NCBI GenBank assembly: GCA_035473115.1
Contig: DATION010000007.1
Coordinates: 41,734 to 105,733, forward strand
Direction: 5' to 3'
Source of the DNA: Candidatus Udaeobacter sp.
GTDB lineage: Bacteria > Patescibacteriota > Patescibacteriia > Magasanikbacterales > GWA2-37-8
DNA length: 64,000 nucleotides
The translations under genes were made by a program, and so were the position numbers. Positions 19,380 to 52,575 of the stretch are shown in pieces (the stretch's first letter is position 1; the number at the start of each line of letters is the position of its first letter). The notes under the pieces were generated by a model that saw only the letters and a program-made list of their open reading frames with translations, did not search any database and had not been told where the DNA came from.

Positions 19380-20327
19380 ATGTCTTCAGAACCAACGCTT
19401 CGCCAGTCGATAATTAATACTTTGGCTTATTTTGATTTAGCCGATTTTCCTCTTACCAGAGAAGAGCTTTTTTCTTGGTTGTGGCTCCCGCCAGCTTCTC
19501 TAAATTATCCTGAGTTTTTAGCGGCTTTAGATAAGCTAAAACTAGATTATAAATTTGGTTATTATTTTTTGCCCGGACAGGAAAAAATTATGGAAGAACG
19601 TCGGCAGAAATTTTTAATTTCCGCACAAAAATTAAAAATGGCTCGGTTAGCTATTAGAGTTATAAAATCAATTCCGTACCTCCGAGCTGTATTTATCTGT
19701 AACACCGTTGCTTCCGAACAAGCTGATGAAAATAGTGATATTGATTTTTTTATTATCACAGCGGCAAAACGAATCTGGATCGTGCGGTTTTTTACGAATT
19801 TAATTTTGCGCCTCTGCGGTCTGCGCACTTATGGAAAGAAAAATAAGAACAAAATTTGCTTAAGTTTTTATGTAACAGTAGAAAGTTTGAATCTGGTAAA
19901 TTTACGCATAGCCGATGATGATATCCATTTGGCATATTGGCTAAATCAGATGTTGCCGATTTTTGATCCGGATAATCTTTATGCCAAATTTTTGCAGGAA
20001 AATTCTTGGACAAAATATTACCTGCCAAATTTAGCTGCCGATAAAAATGCTTCGTATTTGCCAAAAATTTCGGAATCTTTTCTGGACAAGCTTTGGAAGA
20101 AGGCTTGGGAGAAAATGTGGCAAGGGAAATATGGCGACTTAATTAATAATCAGGTGAAAAAAATTCAATTATTGAAGATGAAATTTTCTGGTAAACCGGC
20201 TGATCACGGTATAGATAAAGGTGTAGTTATATCTGATCAAGTTTTGAAATTCCATGAAAAAGATACCAGGATTCCTTATCGCCAAGCCTGGCAACAAAAA
20301 ATTTATGAACTGGAAAAAAATATCTAA
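19380..20327 (+). CDS. Nucleotidyltransferase-fold protein
   Basis: NTase signature ...SEQADENSDIDFFII (G/S-x(n)-DxD). Confidence 0.45.
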   Translation: MSSEPTLRQSIINTLAYFDLADFPLTREELFSWLWLPPASLNYPEFLAALDKLKLDYKFGYYFLPGQEKIMEERRQKFLISAQKLKMARLAIRVIKSIPYLRAVFICNTVASEQADENSDIDFFIITAAKRIWIVRFFTNLILRLCGLRTYGKKNKNKICLSFYVTVESLNLVNLRIADDDIHLAYWLNQMLPIFDPDNLYAKFLQENSWTKYYLPNLAADKNASYLPKISESFLDKLWKKAWEKMWQGKYGDLINNQVKKIQLLKMKFSGKPADHGIDKGVVISDQVLKFHEKDTRIPYRQAWQQKIYELEKNI

Positions 20328-21720
20328 TTTATTACTATCATTGCTTTTATTCCTCCTGCCTTGGCAAACTAGATATATTTGGCAATCGGGAGAATTAAAC
20401 AAAGGCTACTGGGAGTACGGAACCTTTAGTATCTATGGAACCGAGATTTTGCTCTGGATTATTTTAATTATATTTTTTGTTAATCATTTTTTACGCAAAG
20501 ATTTTCTGGCTAATTTTAAAGAGAAAAGCAATATTTTGCGAAGCGTATTTATTCTGTTTTTACTTACTTTCGGTTTGGCGATGGTTTTTAGTAAAAATTT
20601 CTGGGTCTCTTATTACTTTGTTTTTAAATTTTTGGAAGCCATAGCTTTGTTATCTGTTTTGCTTTGGGAAGAAGAGAAGACAAAGTATAAAATCGCGCTT
20701 TGGCTGGGCGGAGTGGGGCAGGGTATTTTGGCCATTGTTCAATTTTTGACTCAGTATGTTTGGGGAAATAAATGGCTCGGAATGGCCCAGCAGAAAGGCG
20801 AAAACTTAGGAACGAGCGTCATTGAGTTTGCCGATCAAAGATGGCTGCGGGCTTATGGCAGCTTTGGATCGCCAAATTCGTTGGGAATTTATTTGGCAGT
20901 TTTGTTTGTGCTCGGTTTAGTTTTGTACTTAAAAATAGAATCAGCCAGAACAAGAATACTTATTAGTATTGGTCAGTTATTTATTTTATCCGGATTGGTT
21001 TTATCTTTTTCGCGCGGCGCTTGGCTAGCAGGCGGGCTTGGAGCATTATCTTTATTAGTAATTTTAATTAAAGATTGTCATTCCCCGCTTGGGCGGGGTA
21101 GGGGTGGGTTGGAAACGATTCATCAACAATTGAGTATTAGCCAACCCACCCCTGGCCTTGAGGCCTTCCCCGCCCAAGCGGGGAATTCCAAACAGCAGAC
21201 CACCACCTCGCTCGGGAGGACAAACATAAAAGATTTTGCCAAACAAATATTTTTTGCTTTGGCAGTAATTATTTTTTGGCTGGTAATTTTTTATCCGGTA
21301 TTTACAGCCAGGTTTAATCTTAGTAATCGTTTGGAAGCAAAATCAATTACGGAAAGAAAAAGCCAATATATTGAAGCATTATCTTTCATTCAATCAAAGC
21401 CTGCTTTAGGAGTCGGGCCCGGAGCCTATACTTACGCTTTATATAAAAAATATCCAACCTTAGAATCGTGGCAATTCCAGCCGGTGCATAATATTTATTT
21501 ATTAGCTTTGGCAGAAGTGGGTCTGGCTGGCACCATAGCTTTGTTTTTTATCTTTAAAAAATTATTCTTATTAGTGCTAAAAAATAATTATATTTATGTT
21601 CCGGTTCTAGTTGTTTTAGCCGCCGCCGGGATTTTTGATCACTGGTTGTGGAGTATGTATACCGGAGTTTTGTTATGGTGGGTAATTTTTGGTCTAATTA
21701 GCAAAGAAAAATTAAATTAA
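20305..21720 (+). CDS. O-antigen ligase/Wzy-like polytopic membrane protein with an in-frame insertion of a GC-rich palindromic element
   Basis: Many TM helices and the FSRGAWLAGG motif of the O-antigen ligase family. Residues ~CHSPLGRGRGGLETIHQQLSISQPTPGLEAFPAQAGNS are encoded by the palindromic element. Confidence 0.65.
   Translation: MNWKKISNLLLSLLLFLLPWQTRYIWQSGELNKGYWEYGTFSIYGTEILLWIILIIFFVNHFLRKDFLANFKEKSNILRSVFILFLLTFGLAMVFSKNFWVSYYFVFKFLEAIALLSVLLWEEEKTKYKIALWLGGVGQGILAIVQFLTQYVWGNKWLGMAQQKGENLGTSVIEFADQRWLRAYGSFGSPNSLGIYLAVLFVLGLVLYLKIESARTRILISIGQLFILSGLVLSFSRGAWLAGGLGALSLLVILIKDCHSPLGRGRGGLETIHQQLSISQPTPGLEAFPAQAGNSKQQTTTSLGRTNIKDFAKQIFFALAVIIFWLVIFYPVFTARFNLSNRLEAKSITERKSQYIEALSFIQSKPALGVGPGAYTYALYKKYPTLESWQFQPVHNIYLLALAEVGLAGTIALFFIFKKLFLLVLKNNYIYVPVLVVLAAAGIFDHWLWSMYTGVLLWWVIFGLISKEKLN
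21075..21195. repeat. GC-rich palindromic element (RPE-like) inserted in-frame in a CDS
   Basis: Inverted repeats ccccgcttgggcgggg...ccccgcccaagcgggg and taggggtgggttgg/ccaacccacccc, with termini tgtcattcc...ggaattcc; local GC far above the surroundings. Confidence 0.6.
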
Positions 21721-47938: not shown

Positions 47939-48304
47939 TTATTTAATTTCTTTTAAAGCCTGTTGCAGAGCTGAAAAGCCGAGCAGGGCGCATTTTGTTC
48001 GTCCGGGGCTGATGGGAATATGTAAAAGCTTATAGATTTTAGCGGTTGTTATTTTTTTTAAGGAAGCTATTTTTTTACCTTGGACCTCGTCTGTCAATAA
48101 AGACATAGCTGCTTGGCTAATGGCGCAGCCGGTACCGATAAAACCAATATCTGTGACTGTGCCATTTTTAATTTTTAACTCCAGAGATATCTTATCACCG
48201 CATAAAGGATTATCAGCCTTTATTTTTATAGTTGGATCAGAAATTTCTCCGGCGTGGTGCGGATGCTGATAATGATCAAGAATTGTTTCTGTATAGATGT
48301 CCAT
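47939..48304 (-). CDS. sufU: SufU/IscU-type Fe-S scaffold / sulfur-transfer protein
   Basis: NPLCGD, GTGCAIS and KCA motifs. Confidence 0.85.
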   Translation of the reverse strand: MDIYTETILDHYQHPHHAGEISDPTIKIKADNPLCGDKISLELKIKNGTVTDIGFIGTGCAISQAAMSLLTDEVQGKKIASLKKITTAKIYKLLHIPISPGRTKCALLGFSALQQALKEIK

Positions 48305-48315
48305 ACAAATTTGGC

Positions 48316-49536
48316 CTATTTAACTTTAAAGATTTTCAGAACTTTTTTTAGGGCGCGTTCGGCCGCATCAACATCTTTGGTTGTATTATACAAATAAAAA
48401 CTCATTCTGGCCGTAGCGGTAACGCCAAGACGAGCAGCGAGCGGTTCGGCACAATGCAAGCCAGAGCGAATAGCTATGCCTTCCTCGTTAAAGATAGTGG
48501 CAATATCGTGCGGGTGAACTCCGGATACAGCAAAAGAAAGCACGCCGTTTGTGTCCGTTATTTTTGATGGTGAGAAGATTTTAACACTGGAATATTTTGC
48601 GAATTTTTGTTTGGCGTAAGCCAACAGCTGACGGCTGTGAGTAGAAATATTTTTCAAGCCTATTTTATTCAAGTATTCAATTGCCGCACCAAAAGCAATA
48701 ATATCGGCAATATTTGGCGTGCCAGCTTCAAATTTCCACGGACCGGAGCGATAAGTGGAAGAAAATTCAGCAACAGTTTCCACCATATCTCCGCCATACA
48801 TAAATGGCGGCATCTCTGCCATTAAAGATTGTTTAATGTACAAGATACCCACGCCGGTTGGACCAAGCATTTTGTGGGCGGAAAAAGCTAAGAAGTCGCA
48901 GCCGATATCCCGGATATTGATTGGCGAGTGGCCGACAATTTGCGCGCCGTCAACCAAAACTTTGGTGCCCACAGCCTGCGCCATAGCGGTAATTTTTTTG
49001 ATTGGTGTAATTGTGCCGGTTACATTGGATTGAGCGGTAATACATACCAGTTTTGTTTTTGGTGACAGTAATTGCTGATAAGCTGTTAAATCCAGTGTAT
49101 AATCCGCAGTTAAAGGAATAACTCTTAAAATAGCTTTTTTTTCTTTGGCCAGTTCTTGCCAAGGAACTAAGTTGGCATGGTGTTCCAGAGCGCTAACAAT
49201 AATTTCATCGCCGGCATTAATGTTTTTTTTGCCCCAAGAAGCGGAAACGCAGTTAATCGCTTCCGTGCAATTTTTGGTAAAGATTATTTCTTCTGTTGTT
49301 TTGGCATTAATAAATTTGGCTACTTTTTTTCTGACATCTTCGTAAGCAGCAGTAGCTTCTTCGGAAAGAGTGTGGATACCGCGATGAATGTTGGCATTAC
49401 TGGTAGTGTAGTATTTTTGTAGAGCTTTTAAGACAGCCGTCGGTTTTTGGCTAGTGGAAGCATTATCTAAATAGACTAGCGGTTTGCCGTTAATTTTTCT
49501 TTTTAAAATAGGGAAGTCCTTTTTGATGTTTTTCAT
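48316..49536 (-). CDS. sufS: Cysteine desulfurase SufS
   Basis: PLP-lysine motif SAHKMLGPTGVG; RSGLHCAEP (class II SufS). Confidence 0.9.
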   Translation of the reverse strand: MKNIKKDFPILKRKINGKPLVYLDNASTSQKPTAVLKALQKYYTTSNANIHRGIHTLSEEATAAYEDVRKKVAKFINAKTTEEIIFTKNCTEAINCVSASWGKKNINAGDEIIVSALEHHANLVPWQELAKEKKAILRVIPLTADYTLDLTAYQQLLSPKTKLVCITAQSNVTGTITPIKKITAMAQAVGTKVLVDGAQIVGHSPINIRDIGCDFLAFSAHKMLGPTGVGILYIKQSLMAEMPPFMYGGDMVETVAEFSSTYRSGPWKFEAGTPNIADIIAFGAAIEYLNKIGLKNISTHSRQLLAYAKQKFAKYSSVKIFSPSKITDTNGVLSFAVSGVHPHDIATIFNEEGIAIRSGLHCAEPLAARLGVTATARMSFYLYNTTKDVDAAERALKKVLKIFKVK

Positions 49537-49547
49537 ATATTATAGGT

Positions 49548-49632
49548 TGTCATCCCGAGCGAGCCGTAGCGACGAGGGGTCTATGCTCTAATGATTAGAT
49601 TCCTCACCCTCTTGTGAGAGGGGTTCGGAATG
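49548..49632. repeat. GC-rich structured palindromic element between sufS and sufD, possibly related to the 21075 element
   Basis: Termini tgtcatcccga...tcggaatgaca (11-bp imperfect inverted repeat); internal ccctct-tgtg-agaggg hairpin; GC far above the flanks. Confidence 0.5.
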
Positions 49633-49636
49633 ACAG

Positions 49637-50257
49637 TTATGATTTTGTCTGAGAAAGAAACTCAGTCACAGTCTCACGGATTGTATTTTTTATTTTTTCA
49701 TCGTTGATAGCGTTTAATTCAGTCTCAAAAAAACCTTGCACTAACATCATCCGAGCTTGTGTTTCCGATAAGCCGCGAGAAAGCAGATAGAAAAGAGCTT
49801 CGTCATCGACTTTGCCTACGCTGGCCGCATGACCGGCTTTGACATCGTCTGTTTTAATTTCTAAAAACGGCGCAGTTTTGGCGGAAGCGTTTGGCGACAA
49901 AAGCAAAGTGTGATGAGCAAAATAAGTGTCTGTGCCAGAAGCAGTTTTTTCAATGCTCCACGCGCCTTCAATGGAACAGGAAGAACTGTCAGTTAAAGCG
50001 GAACGAATTCGGGCTTTAATTTGCGTTTTTGGCGCTTGGTGGTTAGCTTCTATTTTTGCCAAAAAAGAATCATTATTTTTTCCTAAAATAAAAAAAATAC
50101 AGCGGCAAACTGCGCCGCGGCCTTCAGTTTTTATAATTAAATGGCGAGTTCCATCCCAGCCTTTAGTGATCAAACCAACAACAGTTAATTCTTCATCATT
50201 TTTTAAAGCAATGGTTTGGTTAGGGATGGTATCGATGAACAAAATTTTTTCAGACAT
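49637..50257 (-). CDS. sufD: Short SufD-like Fe-S assembly protein (206 aa)
   Basis: Operon position between sufB and sufS and a SufBD-like C-terminal beta-helix region; the length (206 aa) is well below a full-length SufD. Confidence 0.6.
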   Translation of the reverse strand: MSEKILFIDTIPNQTIALKNDEELTVVGLITKGWDGTRHLIIKTEGRGAVCRCIFFILGKNNDSFLAKIEANHQAPKTQIKARIRSALTDSSSCSIEGAWSIEKTASGTDTYFAHHTLLLSPNASAKTAPFLEIKTDDVKAGHAASVGKVDDEALFYLLSRGLSETQARMMLVQGFFETELNAINDEKIKNTIRETVTEFLSQTKS

Positions 50258-50283: not shown

Positions 50284-51702
50284 TTATCCAACCGAACCGG
50301 TCATTTCTAAAGCCAGTAAACGATTTAGCTCAAGAGCATACTCCATTGGCAGCTGCCGCACAATTGGGTTGGCAAAACCATTCACAATTAGGGTGGCTGC
50401 CTGCTCTTCAGAAAGTCCGCGGCTCATTAAATAGAAAAGTTCATCCTCACCGATACTGGCCACAGTTGCTTCATGAGCGATGGCTACATCTTCTTCTTTT
50501 ATATCCATGGTTGGATAAGTATCCGATCGGGATGCAGGGTCAAGCATTAAAGCGTCGCAGACCACACGAGTTTTGACATTTTTTGCTCCTTTGATAACTT
50601 TAACAAGCCCGCGATAAGTAGAGCGCCCGCCGTTTTTGCTGATTGATTTTGAGACAATTGTGGAGCTGGTGTCTGGAGCCAGATGAATTACTTTGCCGCC
50701 GGCATCTTGGTGCTGGCCAGTGGAGGCAAAAGCCAGAGATTGGATTTCTCCTTTGGCGCCGCGTTCTCGCAAAATGATGCTCGGGTATTTCATGGTTACT
50801 TTTGAGCCCAAGTTGCAATCAAGCCAAAACATTTCGGCGTTTTCGTGGGCCATAGCTCTTTTGGTAACCAGGTTGTAAACATTACCTGACCAATTTTGGA
50901 TAGTGGTATATTGAACTCGCGCGCCTTTTTTGACAATAATTTCTACCACAGCCGAGTGTAGAGAGTCGCTGGAATAAGTTGGGGCAGTGCAGCCTTCAAC
51001 ATAATGCACGGAGCTGCCTTCATCGGCAATAATTAGAGTGCGTTCAAATTGACCCATGTTTTCTATGTTGATACGGAAGTAGGCTTGTAAAGGCAATTCA
51101 ATATGTACGCCTTTGGGTACATAGATAAAAGATCCACCAGACCAAACTGCAGAATTGAGAGCGGCAAATTTATTATCTCCCGGAGGAATAACAGTGCTAA
51201 AATATTTTTTAAAAAGTTCCGGATGATTTTTTAGGGCGTCATCGGTAGATTCAAAAATCACGCCTTGTTTGGCCAGGTTTTTGGCCAAGGAATGATAGAT
51301 CATTTCTGATTCAAACTGAGCACCGGTTCCGGCTAAGAATTTTTTTTCCGCTTCGGGAATTCCTAGTTTATCAAAAGTGTCTTTGATTTCTTTTGGTACC
51401 TCATCCCAGCTGCGTTTGGCTTTATCTTGCGGGCGAACATAATAATGAATGTTGTCAAAATCAATTCCTGATAAATCAGCACCCCATTTTGGCATCTCTT
51501 TTTTTAAAAATATTTCGTAGGCATGCAGGCGAGATTTAAGCATCCATTCCGGTTCGTTTTTTTGGCGAGAGATTTCTCGGATAATATTTTCGTTTAATCC
51601 TTTTTGAGAAGCAAAAAAACTTTTGGTTTCGGTACGAAAACTAAAAGCCGAATTATCTCCGGTTTGGGTAAGCATCTTTTTTGTTTTTATCGGTACTGCC
51701 AT
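50284..51702 (-). CDS. sufB: Fe-S cluster assembly protein SufB
   Basis: 472 aa; SufB family motifs throughout the ORF. Confidence 0.9.
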
Positions 51703-51810: not shown

Positions 51811-52575
51811 TTAAGATTTCTTTAAAAAAGAATCGTATCCACCCTTTTCTATCTTTTTAATAATTTCGGTTCCGCCTTGAGCGATGATTTTGCCTTTGCG
51901 CATGATATGAATCTTGTCTGGTTTGAGGAATTTAAGAATTTTTGGATTATGGCTGACGATTACTATACCCATGCCTTGTTTTTTTTGTACAGCGCCGATT
52001 TCTTTGATGACAATTTTGAGCGCGTCTATATCTAAGCCAGAATCTATTTCATCCAAAAAAGCAAATGACGGTTCCAGCATAGCCATCTGCAAAACTTCGG
52101 ATTTCTTTTTTTCTCCGCCGGAGAATCCTTCATTTACGGAGCGAGAAATAAAAGCGGGATCTATTTTTAATTTCTCCATCTGAGCGCGCATTAATGCGGC
52201 AAAATCAGCCGGACCAATCGGCGGTGTTTTTACTTTCTTGGCTTTGTCGGTAGTATTGCGAGCCAAACGCAAGAAATTACCCAAACCTACACCAGACACC
52301 ACCTGAGGGTGCTGGAAGCCCAAAAACAGGCCCGCTTGAGCGCGTTCCGTAGGGGACAGGTCAAGAATCTCTTTTTTATCCAGAGTTACAGAACCGGAGG
52401 TTACGGTATATTTTGGGTTGCCCATTAACACCGAAAGCAGAGTGCTTTTGCCGGAGCCATTTTGACCCATGATAATATGAATTTCTCCCAGAGCTATATT
52501 TAAAGAAACGCCATTTAATATTTTGGTGTTGCCGATAGAGGCGTGAAGATTTTTGATTTTAAGAGTATTTGCCAT
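51811..52575 (-). CDS. sufC: Fe-S cluster assembly ATPase SufC
   Basis: Walker A GQNGSGKST; ABC signature; 254 aa. Confidence 0.9.
   Translation of the reverse strand: MANTLKIKNLHASIGNTKILNGVSLNIALGEIHIIMGQNGSGKSTLLSVLMGNPKYTVTSGSVTLDKKEILDLSPTERAQAGLFLGFQHPQVVSGVGLGNFLRLARNTTDKAKKVKTPPIGPADFAALMRAQMEKLKIDPAFISRSVNEGFSGGEKKKSEVLQMAMLEPSFAFLDEIDSGLDIDALKIVIKEIGAVQKKQGMGIVIVSHNPKILKFLKPDKIHIMRKGKIIAQGGTEIIKKIEKGGYDSFLKKS

What the first reader, a model, noticed from the sequence alone, without database searches (positions are those of the whole stretch)
49548..49632. Structured GC-rich element between sufS and sufD with inverted termini tgtcatcccga / tcggaatgaca
An 85-bp intergenic island of high GC, bounded by an 11-bp imperfect inverted repeat and containing internal hairpins (ccctct-tgtg-agaggg). 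It shares the tgtcatYcc...ggaatKmc termini with the element inside the ligase gene, which suggests a dispersed small palindromic element family or a conserved small RNA or attenuator within the suf operon.
Basis: seen in the sequence. Interest (0 to 1): 0.5.

Follow-up and report, generated by a model that had tools for sequence, protein, structure and literature searches.

The report
Selfish hairpin-pair repeat between sufD and sufS
The GC-rich island between sufD and sufS is one copy of a small two-hairpin repeat that is scattered through the genomes of many bacterial phyla, was inserted here secondarily, and is not a suf regulator; in related genomes the same hairpins flank a tiny GIY-YIG nuclease gene.

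Summary
The sequence features are real. Window 49548-49635 is an 88-bp, 53% GC element that fills the sufD/sufS spacer. It has TGTCAT...ATGACA ends and an internal CCCTCT/AGAGGG hairpin.

It is not suf-specific. One pattern scan found at least 126 copies in 116 loci labelled as 12 or more phyla.

Each copy is two inverted hairpin arms with a TGTC tag facing outward, joined by a spacer with complementary ends. The arm closing pair covaries (C-G 79, T-A 37, 3 exceptions). There is no target-site duplication and no orientation bias relative to genes. Many copies lie in frame inside ORFs, as does the second window copy in the Wzy-like gene.

Among nine orthologous suf junctions, three carry this family, one carries another palindrome and five are empty. 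Filled and empty are interleaved on a SufD tree, so this is a polymorphic insertion.

The anatomy matches head-to-head dimers of CGTC/TGTC-tagged REPs (Di Nocera 2013). It also resembles the hairpin repeats paired with Ssn GIY-YIG single-strand nucleases (2025). In relatives, identical arms flank about 97-aa GIY-YIG genes in units of 364-415 bp. No such gene lies in this window, and the published SRM motif does not match.

Verdict: a new member of a known kind.

The parts
49548..49635 (.). E1: the complete element, a head-to-head dimer of two TGTC-tagged hairpin arms plus a spacer (88 bp, 53% GC)
   Evidence: The architecture is shared with 126 copies elsewhere.
49548..49581 (+). 5' arm. TGTC tag at 49548-49551. 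Closing stem ATCCC (49552-49556) pairs with GGGGT (49576-49580), slightly decayed from the family's GGGAT. Interior is GAGCGAGCCGTAGCGACGA. C at 49581 follows the palindrome directly.
   Evidence: Sequence. Family-wide covariation of the closing pair: C-G 79, T-A 37, 3 exceptions. C after the palindrome in 113 of 117 copies.
49580..49599 (.). Central spacer with complementary ends and a small palindrome (TCTAAT 49587-49592 / ATTAGA 49594-49599)
   Evidence: I4. Across copies the spacer ends pair for a mean of 3.2 bp against 0.36 bp in shuffles.
49598..49635 (-). 3' arm, read on the - strand as TGTC-ATTCC-GAA-[CCCCTCT caca AGAGGG]-TGA-GGAAT-C. Tag at 49632-49635, closing stem 49627-49631 / 49599-49603, inner hairpin 49607-49622.
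   Evidence: (I5)
49637..50257 (-). Context: short sufD (206 aa, SUFBD_core). Its stop codon lies 1 nt from E1.
48316..49536 (-). Context: sufS (406 aa, Aminotran_5). Its ATG lies 11 nt from E1. In relatives with an empty site, sufD and sufS overlap or are 3-6 nt apart.
21076..21222 (-). E2: a degenerate copy of the same family, inserted in frame in the Wzy_C/O-antigen-ligase-like ORF (20254-21720, +). It encodes about 49 extra residues (CHSPLGRG...SLGRT).
   Evidence: Most homologues are 420-450 aa and lack the insert. Others carry different in-frame inserts at the same loop with family-type peptides such as CHSERS... and ...LGMT.
21083..21183 (.). A second, nested palindromic element inside the arm of E2: a near-perfect long hairpin with arms CCCCGCTTGGGCGGGG...
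   Evidence: -88 kcal/mol, z = -9.4. The same arm sequence occurs as two inverted pairs in L082.

Best explanation
E1 is a gene-less copy of a widespread selfish repeat. It consists of two inverted, REP-like hairpin arms, each headed by an unpaired (T)GTC tag, with the tags facing outward. This is a head-to-head dimer in the sense used for CGTC-tagged REPs.

Shown here:
- The family exists and spans many phyla.
- Each arm is its own hairpin, because its closing pair covaries.
- Copies leave no target-site duplication and have no orientation preference.
- Copies sit in intergenic spacers close to stop codons, or in frame inside genes.
- The suf copy is a secondary insertion into a junction that is ancestrally tight or overlapping.
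- In relatives, the same arms with the same inner TCTGTC/GACAGA stem bracket a roughly 97-aa single-domain GIY-YIG nuclease gene, giving units of 364-415 bp.

Inferred:
- E1-type dimers are deletion derivatives of those gene-carrying units.
- The arms are the single-stranded-DNA recognition and cleavage sites of an Ssn-like GIY-YIG nuclease encoded elsewhere in the genome. The published enzyme needs the GTC 5' of the palindrome for cutting and the C just 3' of it for binding, and both are conserved here.
- Spread occurs on single-stranded DNA without duplicating the target.

Local consequence, also inferred: the element is co-transcribed in the suf mRNA. It forms a stable hairpin starting 1-2 nt after the sufD stop and breaks the sufD-sufS translational coupling seen at empty sites. 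There is no evidence that this effect is selected.
For: The 5' arm closing pair covaries C-G 79, T-A 37, with 3 exceptions. C follows the palindrome in 113 of 117 5' arms and 84 of 104 3' arms. Spacer ends are complementary.

Mode of insertion: no target-site duplication was found (none of 126 with 4 bp or more; shorter matches equal the chance rate). Position -1 is T or C in 99 of 126 and +1 is A or G in 105 of 126. Sizes are 60-150 bp, and the only longer arm pairs are 364, 367 and 415 bp. Those three enclose GIY-YIG genes.

Gene-carrying units: the same arm-gene-arm layout occurs in two Magasanikbacteria genomes, L127 and L130.

Insertion polymorphism: filled sites are the window, L006/L118 and L122. 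L119 holds another palindrome. Empty sites are L120/121, L123/124, L149, L150/151 and L152/153. Filled and empty are interleaved on a SufD neighbour-joining tree. A Logan contig carrying the identical sufD ends at the element terminus.

Literature: features of CGTC/TGTC-tagged REPs (PMC3733652). The Ssn/NTS system (PMC11893778).
Against: - No GIY-YIG gene lies in the 64-kb window (tblastn), and the rest of the genome could not be searched.
- The published SRM search motif matches none of the 126 copies, nor the arms that flank GIY-YIG genes, although it matches the NTS control.
- The arms do not have the 8-9 bp perfect stems and 4-5 nt loops given for CGTC families 1-4. They have 5 Watson-Crick pairs, then GA/AG, then a GCGNAGC-type mini-hairpin or a larger insert.
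- Membership of the neighbouring GIY-YIG proteins in cd10448 (Ssn) was not tested. Their nearest solved relatives are UPF0213 proteins, at only E = 7e-7.
- Only 6 of 116 loci hold a GIY-YIG gene, so linkage is occasional.
- Neither mobility nor cleavage has been shown for this family.
- The 5' arm of E1 is slightly decayed (GGGGT in place of GGGAT) and folds weakly on its own as DNA.
Confidence: 0.72

Rival explanations
1. The element is a suf-specific cis-regulatory RNA, such as an attenuator, a processing site or a small RNA, conserved because it controls sufS relative to sufBCD.
For: It folds stably as RNA on the sense strand (-35.4 kcal/mol, z = -4.3). It lies exactly between two operon genes. 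An element of the same family occupies the same place in L006/L118 and L122.
Against: Five of nine orthologous junctions are empty and one holds an unrelated palindrome, interleaved on the SufD tree. The same element occurs in unrelated contexts across many phyla and inside ORFs, in both orientations equally. Folding shows no strand asymmetry. No Rfam match was found. There is no U-tract or terminator call.
Confidence: 0.04
2. The element is a selfish insertion that has since been put to use. The RNA hairpin next to the stop codon lowers sufD output or stabilises the upstream sufCBD transcript and uncouples sufS translation, as described for E. coli REP/BIME elements. This reading is compatible with the main explanation.
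For: The hairpin begins 1-2 nt after the sufD stop and ends 11 nt before the sufS ATG. Family copies between tandem genes lie a median of 22 nt after the upstream stop. Di Nocera et al. report the same bias for REPs. The junction has been filled at least three times independently, and again in an alphaproteobacterial lineage.
Against: Recurrent filling can equally reflect the site tolerating insertions. There are no expression data. Close relatives function with an empty, overlapping junction. Orientation differs in arm content between L122 and the window.
Confidence: 0.15
3. The element is a classical MITE moved in trans by a DDE transposase that recognises the TGTCAT...ATGACA terminal inverted repeats.
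For: It has terminal inverted repeats with TG...CA ends, a size of about 90 bp, and presence/absence polymorphism.
Against: No target-site duplication was seen in 126 copies. No long element with these ends carries a transposase in 866 kb of flanking DNA. The only gene found between such arms is a GIY-YIG nuclease. The arm stems covary, which points to hairpin recognition and not to recognition of a duplex inverted repeat.
Confidence: 0.04
4. The element is a REPIN, a REP doublet mobilised by a RAYT (REP-associated Y1 tyrosine transposase).
For: It is an inverted doublet of short hairpins with a conserved unpaired tetranucleotide, leaves no target duplication, and contains a GCGNAGC-type loop core also seen in enterobacterial REPs.
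Against: The tag is TGTC/CGTC-type, not GTAG. CGTC-type REPs are reported to lack any association with RAYT genes. No recurrent neighbouring protein family other than GIY-YIG emerged from clustering 3,367 ORFs. RAYT profile HMMs were not run on these ORFs, so absence is not proven.
Confidence: 0.07

Closest known systems
CGTC-tagged REP superfamily (Di Nocera, De Gregorio & Rocco 2013, PMC3733652). It includes Neisseria dRS3 and Rickettsia RPE-4/RPE-6.
   Same: An unpaired CGTC tag, stated to be often TGTC, sits at one end of a hairpin whose stem starts with A-T and T-A. Head-to-head dimers with tags outside predominate. Spacers have complementary ends or small stem-loops. Copies lie close to the 3' ends of ORFs. 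In-frame intragenic copies occur. There is no target duplication and no dedicated transposase (compared).
   Different: The stems here are 5 Watson-Crick pairs, then tandem G.A/A.G, then a GCGNAGC-like mini-hairpin or a larger inserted hairpin, not 8-9 perfect pairs with 4-5 nt loops. The tail is C-T-C/C-T-A, not CCA. The hosts include Patescibacteria, Acidobacteriota, Gemmatimonadota, Chloroflexota and others, beyond the 5 phyla listed in that paper.
Ssn GIY-YIG single-strand nucleases and their NTS/SRM hairpin repeats (Nat Commun 2025, PMC11893778)
   Same: The head is HGTC-WY (here TGTC-AT). A palindrome follows, then a C directly after it. The published work found the GTC important for cutting and the C for binding. 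The NTS-ssnA-NTS layout is mirrored here by arm-GIY-YIG-arm units of 364-415 bp. The protein is small (82-110 aa) and single-domain (compared).
   Different: The published SRM degenerate motif matches none of these copies. Membership of the neighbouring proteins in cd10448 is untested. No ssn-like gene lies in this window. Gene-less head-to-head dimers acting as a MITE-like population, and in-frame insertions in CPR proteins, did not come up in the passages of that paper retrieved here.
REPIN/RAYT systems (GTAG-tagged REP doublets; Nunvar 2010, PMC2817692)
   Same: These are inverted hairpin doublets with an unpaired tag that leave no target duplication. The presumed biology is single-stranded DNA plus hairpin recognition. 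The loop core resembles AGCGNAGCG.
   Different: The tag and the associated enzyme class differ: a Y1 HUH transposase there, a GIY-YIG nuclease here. Unlike the species-limited REP sets that one search lists for RAYT hosts, this family keeps near-identical termini across phyla.
Rickettsia palindromic elements (RPE), in-frame selfish palindromes in protein genes
   Same: E2 and many other copies are translated in frame inside conserved proteins at tolerant loops. Di Nocera et al. equate RPE-4 and RPE-6 with CGTC-type REPs.
   Different: The host phylum is different. Direct sequence comparison with RPE consensus sequences was not done here.
DDE-type bacterial MITEs (for example Correia/NEMIS and ERIC)
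   Same: They are small, have inverted-repeat ends, are intergenic and co-transcribed, and fold as RNA hairpins.
   Different: Those leave target-site duplications and derive from IS elements with transposases. This family shows neither.

Membership tests
CGTC/TGTC-tagged REP superfamily (Di Nocera 2013) | Unpaired terminal tag CGTC (variants TGTC, CCTC) at one end of a hairpin | tested here: met
   TGTC lies at 49548-49551 and, on the - strand, at 49632-49635. The same tag is on arms flanking GIY-YIG genes that were found independently of the search pattern.
CGTC/TGTC-tagged REP superfamily (Di Nocera 2013) | Stem begins with complementary A-T and T-A at positions 1 and 2 | tested here: met
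   The stems are ATYCC...GGRAT. Covariation is C-G 79 and T-A 37 with 3 exceptions. In the 5' arm of E1 the closing GGGAT has decayed to GGGGT.
CGTC/TGTC-tagged REP superfamily (Di Nocera 2013) | Stem of 8-9 bp, loop of 4-5 nt, and a 3-nt tail (consensus CCA) | tested here: not met
   Arms have 5 Watson-Crick pairs plus GA/AG plus a mini-hairpin, or larger inserts of 19-23 nt in E1. The tail starts with C (113 of 117) but reads CTC/CTA. The family therefore falls outside families CGTC-1 to CGTC-4 as described.
CGTC/TGTC-tagged REP superfamily (Di Nocera 2013) | Mostly head-to-head dimers (tags outside) whose spacers have complementary ends; located near ORF 3' ends; some intragenic in-frame copies | tested here: met
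   The search pattern itself required a dimer, so the frequency of single arms was not measured.
Ssn-related motif (SRM/NTS) paired with a GIY-YIG Ssn nuclease (PMC11893778) | Match to the published SRM degenerate sequence HGTCWYN(0-2)YYVSBRHN(0-5)WNVSBRGN(0-2)RNCYNB | tested here: not met
   None of 126 copies match, there are no hits in the window, and the arms next to GIY-YIG genes also fail. The NTS control matches. By hand alignment of the motif to the consensus arm, the mismatch lies at the A of the GA mismatch in the stem.
Ssn-related motif (SRM/NTS) paired with a GIY-YIG Ssn nuclease (PMC11893778) | GTC directly 5' of the palindrome and C directly 3' of it (the positions critical for cutting and binding) | tested here: met
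   requirement taken
Ssn-related motif (SRM/NTS) paired with a GIY-YIG Ssn nuclease (PMC11893778) | Repeats flank a small single-domain GIY-YIG gene on both sides | tested here: met
   Met in relatives only: L043 1565-1928, L042 4876-5242, L082 7255-7669, L127 and L130. It is not met in the window itself, which holds no GIY-YIG gene.
Ssn-related motif (SRM/NTS) paired with a GIY-YIG Ssn nuclease (PMC11893778) | The protein belongs to CDD family cd10448 and cuts the hairpin only as single-stranded DNA | not testable with these tools
   Neither CDD nor an SsnA sequence was available. Pfam gives only PF01541. The nearest PDB entries are UPF0213 proteins at E = 7e-7.
REPIN/RAYT | GTAG-type tag and a RAYT (Y1 transposase) gene flanked by the repeats | tested here: not met
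   The tag is TGTC. No recurrent neighbouring family other than GIY-YIG was found. RAYT HMMs were not run on all ORFs.
DDE-transposase MITE | Target-site duplication and a parent IS with the same inverted-repeat ends | tested here: not met
cis-regulatory RNA of the suf operon | Conservation at the orthologous position, a fixed orientation, and strand-specific structure | tested here: not met
   empty sites; no strand or orientation bias; no Rfam family

The most novel reading that the evidence does not exclude
The arm-GIY-YIG-arm units of 364-415 bp may be autonomous mobile elements. They would be among the smallest known, and driven by an Ssn-like single-strand GIY-YIG nuclease instead of a transposase. 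E1-type head-to-head dimers would then be their non-autonomous, MITE-like progeny. These have spread with near-identical termini across a dozen phyla, insert in frame into CPR proteins, and repeatedly land in particular junctions. The sufD-sufS junction is filled at least three times in CPR lineages, and in an alphaproteobacterial lineage it holds the GIY-YIG gene plus a dimer.
Probability: 0.35. Interest if true: 0.7.

Novelty: new member of a known kind. Interest (0 to 1): 0.4.

Why it matters
For annotating this locus, the result removes a false lead. The island is parasitic DNA and not a suf regulator. It also explains why assemblies break here and why CPR proteins such as the Wzy-like one carry odd low-complexity inserts.

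More broadly, this family falls outside both published definitions: CGTC families 1-4 and the SRM search motif. Yet it shows the same tag, hairpin and trailing C, and it brackets small GIY-YIG genes. That extends the Ssn/hairpin-repeat partnership to Patescibacteria and other poorly studied phyla.

It also supplies natural filled and empty sites, and gene-carrying versus gene-less forms. With these, the open question of whether such repeats are mobilised by the nuclease could be tested.

Tried and rejected
- Rfam at gathering threshold on the whole window, and at E up to 10 on the element: only chance snoRNA-level hits.
- Literal-sequence search of papers for the termini: only unrelated primers.
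- Paper searches for palindromic elements in CPR/Patescibacteria: nothing.
- BLAST of E1 and of a consensus arm against the plasmid and phage collections: no match, or chance-level hits.
- Viral contig scan: only 2 contigs, so no sign of a phage vector.
- Metagenome-contig scan with SufD: a single locus, the same species as L006.
- Search for long arm pairs that would mark a transposase-bearing parent: only the three GIY-YIG units and three spurious pairs longer than 2.5 kb.
- Hairpin-aware scan for more arms in the window: only E1 rose above chance (6 hits against 8.7 expected).
- Other near-matches to the termini in the window (7448/7630, 29048, 32808, 41322): ordinary coding sequence.
- Promoter and terminator scan: no site is scored at the element on the coding (-) strand; the one + strand promoter-like match that starts inside it (49614-49643) is within the shuffle expectation of 2.6. 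The TATAAT next to the element is not conserved in L006 or L122.
- Supplementary files of both key papers held no usable sequences.

Full report
**1. Observation.**

Window 49548-49635 reads TGTCATCCCGAGCGAG...GGTTCGGAATGACA.
- The 11-nt imperfect inverted termini and the CCCTCT/AGAGGG hairpin are present.
- GC is 53% in the element against 39% in the flanks.

Pfam confirms the neighbours. All lie on the - strand, and sufD is a short 206-aa form:

| Gene | Coordinates |
|---|---|
| sufC | 51811-52575 |
| sufB | 50284-51702 |
| sufD | 49637-50257 |
| sufS | 48316-49536 |
| sufU-like | 47939-48304 |

The element fills the 100-bp spacer. It starts 1 nt after the sufD stop codon and ends 11 nt before the sufS ATG. 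On the sense strand it folds at -35.4 kcal/mol, z = -4.3.

**2. The second copy.**

The Wzy_C-family ORF (20254-21720) contains a 147-bp in-frame insert at 21076-21222.
- Its left end is TTGTCATTCC.
- Its right end is CCTCGCTCGGGAGGACAA, the reverse complement of a decayed TTGTC[A>C]TCCCGAGCGAGG.
- It is therefore the same kind of element in the opposite orientation.
- A second, near-perfect long palindrome is nested in one arm.

No further copies rise above chance in the 64 kb.

**3. A cross-phylum family.**

It returned 116 loci holding 126 copies.

Going by the record titles, my count of the loci is:

| Label | Loci |
|---|---|
| Patescibacteria (mostly Magasanikbacteria) | 36 |
| Acidobacteriota | 23 |
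| uncultured 'Gammaproteobacteria' | 13 |
| Bacteroidota (including cultured Hymenobacter) | 8 |
| Gemmatimonadota | 7 |
| Chloroflexota | 7 |
| Betaproteobacteria (including one complete genome) | 5 |
| Planctomycetota | 4 |
| Binatota | 3 |
| Omnitrophota | 2 |

Single Verrucomicrobiota, Rickettsiales and Firmicutes loci make up part of the remainder.

These labels are the submitters' own, and some are doubtful. The window's own record is labelled Candidatus Udaeobacter, although every relative is a patescibacterium.

**4. Anatomy.**

All copies share one plan:
- a 5' arm TGTC-AT[Y]CC-GAGCGAG-(variable mini-hairpin)-CGA(C)GAGG[R]AT-C;
- a spacer whose ends pair;
- a 3' arm that is the same kind of module inverted, G-ATTCC-TC-(variable mini-hairpin)-TCGGAAT-GACA.

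The simplest arm, GTCATTCC-GA-GCGNAGC-GA-GGAATC, combines a 5-bp stem, tandem G.A/A.G and a GCGNAGC mini-hairpin.

Three measurements support this plan:
- The closing pair of the 5' arm covaries within the arm: C with G in 79 copies, T with A in 37, and 3 exceptions. Each arm is therefore a hairpin in its own right, not merely half of a long inverted repeat.
- A C follows the palindrome in 113 of 117 5' arms and in 84 of 104 3' arms.
- Spacer ends pair for a mean of 3.2 bp, against 0.36 bp in shuffles, with many different sequences.

**5. Behaviour.**

- Copies are 60-150 bp long.
- There is no target-site duplication. Only a pyrimidine preference at -1 and a purine preference at +1 is seen.
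- Orientation relative to flanking genes is random: 23:23 between tandem genes and 26:24 inside ORFs.
- The two strands fold equally well.
- Between tandem genes, copies lie a median of 22 nt after the upstream stop codon.
- Many copies sit inside long ORFs.

In the alignment of Wzy homologues, most proteins are 420-450 aa and lack the window's insert. Several carry different in-frame inserts at the same loop, and at a second loop, with peptides typical of translated arms such as CHSERS......LGMT and VIPTAVEGS....

**6. The suf junction is polymorphic.**

| State of the sufD-sufS junction | Loci |
|---|---|
| Filled with this family | window; L006/L118 (Magasanikbacteria RIFOXYD1_FULL_40_23, same orientation, same TAA-C-TGTCAT junction); L122 (different arms) |
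| Filled with an unrelated palindrome | L119 |
| Empty, with sufD and sufS overlapping or 3-6 nt apart | L120/121, L123/124, L149, L150/151, L152/153 |

On a neighbour-joining SufD tree the three filled lineages are separated by empty ones. This implies at least three gains or many precise losses.

A short-read contig carrying the identical sufD ends at the element terminus, as expected for a repeat.

Together these results exclude an obligatory suf regulator. No Rfam family matches, and nothing terminator-like or promoter-like is scored at the element on the coding strand.

**7. What is known.**

Di Nocera et al. [quoted passage not shown] Its features are:
- stems starting with A-T and T-A;
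- mostly head-to-head dimers with the tags outside;
- spacers with complementary ends;
- positions close to ORF 3' ends;
- in-frame intragenic copies, including Rickettsia RPE-4 and RPE-6;
- inclusion of Neisseria dRS3;
- no associated transposase.

A 2025 paper (PMC11893778) showed that the Neisseria repeat, NTS = CGTCATTCCCGCGMAVGCGGGAATCYRG, is the single-stranded-DNA site of SsnA, a 94-aa single-domain GIY-YIG nuclease. In that work:
- the bases just 5' of the palindrome govern cutting;
- the C just 3' of the palindrome governs binding;
- ssn genes are typically bracketed by such repeats, an IS-like layout.

**8. Link found here.**

Clustering all ORFs near the 126 copies gave no recurrent transposase. 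It did give a cluster of small proteins that are GIY-YIG domains, PF01541 at E = 1e-14 to 1e-17.

The genes lie in L017, L030, L042 (two genes), L043, L082 and L116. In L043, L042 and L082 the gene is bracketed by two outward-tagged arms. These account for the only 364-, 367- and 415-bp arm pairs seen.

Two Magasanikbacteria genomes show the same layout: arm-TCTGTC, then the gene, then GACAGA-arm (L127, L130). The inner stem is the one seen in many gene-less dimers. E1-type elements therefore look like deletion derivatives of these units.

The protein family is large, with 6,418 relatives at E of 1e-8 or better. It is present in genomes related to the window organism.

In an alphaproteobacterial lineage, a member of this protein family plus a dimer of the same repeat lies between sufD and sufS, the very junction occupied by E1.

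**9. Limits.**

- The published SRM search motif matches none of these copies, although it matches NTS.
- The arm geometry differs from CGTC families 1-4.
- Membership of the proteins in cd10448 could not be tested. The nearest solved structures are UPF0213 proteins, at E = 7e-7.
- No GIY-YIG gene lies in the window, and the rest of the genome was out of reach.
- Mobility is inferred from presence/absence patterns. It has not been observed.
- The suf-junction coincidence across phyla rests on four sampled GIY-YIG loci and may simply reflect a tolerant site.

**10. Verdict.**

The feature is real and ordinary in kind. It is a head-to-head dimer of TGTC-tagged REP-like hairpins inserted into the sufD-sufS junction. 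It most probably belongs to the hairpin-repeat/GIY-YIG (Ssn-like) partnership.

Any effect on the suf operon would come from the stop-proximal RNA hairpin and the loss of translational coupling. That effect is plausible but unproven, and nothing suggests it explains the element's presence.

It is a new member of a known kind. The residual interest lies in the family's breadth, its in-frame insertions in CPR proteins, and the gene-carrying versus gene-less forms.

Noticed in passing
L141-L148 (alphaproteobacterial contigs), locus coordinates about 599-1040: A 98-aa GIY-YIG gene (P0325) sits 1 nt after sufD. It is followed by a head-to-head dimer of the same repeat family and then sufS. This is the same junction as E1, in a different phylum.
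   Followed up: partly
L119 2120-2233: The closest relative (SufD 86% identical) has a different palindromic insert at the sufD-sufS junction. Its arms are CATAACCAATACTGATTTT / AAAATCAATATTGGTTATG. No copy of it was found in the window or in the other loci.
   Followed up: partly
window 21083-21183; L082 2957-3416 and 5114-5212: The long near-perfect hairpin nested in E2 (arms CCCCGCTTGGGCGGGG) recurs as two inverted pairs in L082. It is therefore a second palindromic repeat family, and it can insert into the first.
   Followed up: partly
alignment A2, columns about 150-215 and 355-450 (Wzy-like proteins of CPR): Two loops of this membrane protein carry different in-frame repeat-derived inserts in different lineages (for example VISPLPRGSEEGV..., VIPTAVEGS..., CHSERS...). 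This makes them insertion hot spots or especially tolerant sites.
   Followed up: partly
L130 601-1500: In Magasanikbacteria RIFOXYD2_FULL_41_14 the arm-flanked GIY-YIG gene lies directly upstream of ComEC (DUF4131 plus Competence domains). This is suggestive, because SsnA modulates natural transformation in Neisseria.
   Followed up: no
L090 1-160: A tandem array of about five units, period 29 nt, of a truncated 5' arm (TGTCATCCCGAGCGAGTCATCTTTCTCCC) sits directly upstream of a complete element.
   Followed up: no
L072 517-2141 (Betaproteobacteria bacterium UKL13-2, complete genome): Four nearly identical copies lie within 1.6 kb and share the same flanks. The element here is part of a larger local tandem repeat.
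   Followed up: no
window as a whole; P0001: The source record is labelled 'Candidatus Udaeobacter sp.' (Verrucomicrobiota). The gene content and all close homologues of SufD, Wzy and the GIY-YIG neighbours are from Patescibacteria/Magasanikbacteria. Several 'uncultured Gammaproteobacteria' MAG loci (L012, L034, L042, L073, L097) also look CPR-like. The taxonomy labels may be wrong.
   Followed up: partly
window 49637-50257: SufD here is only 206 aa. It matches only the C-terminal two-thirds of the SUFBD core profile (positions 69-232 of 232) and has no SufBD_N region, as in all its CPR relatives. The alphaproteobacterial SufD is 427 aa.
   Followed up: no
L127 934-1176: A second, shorter GIY-YIG gene (80 aa, of the MYYLYILEC... 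type also seen in L017 and L042) lies directly downstream of the arm-flanked one. Two GIY-YIG subtypes co-occur next to these repeats.
   Followed up: no
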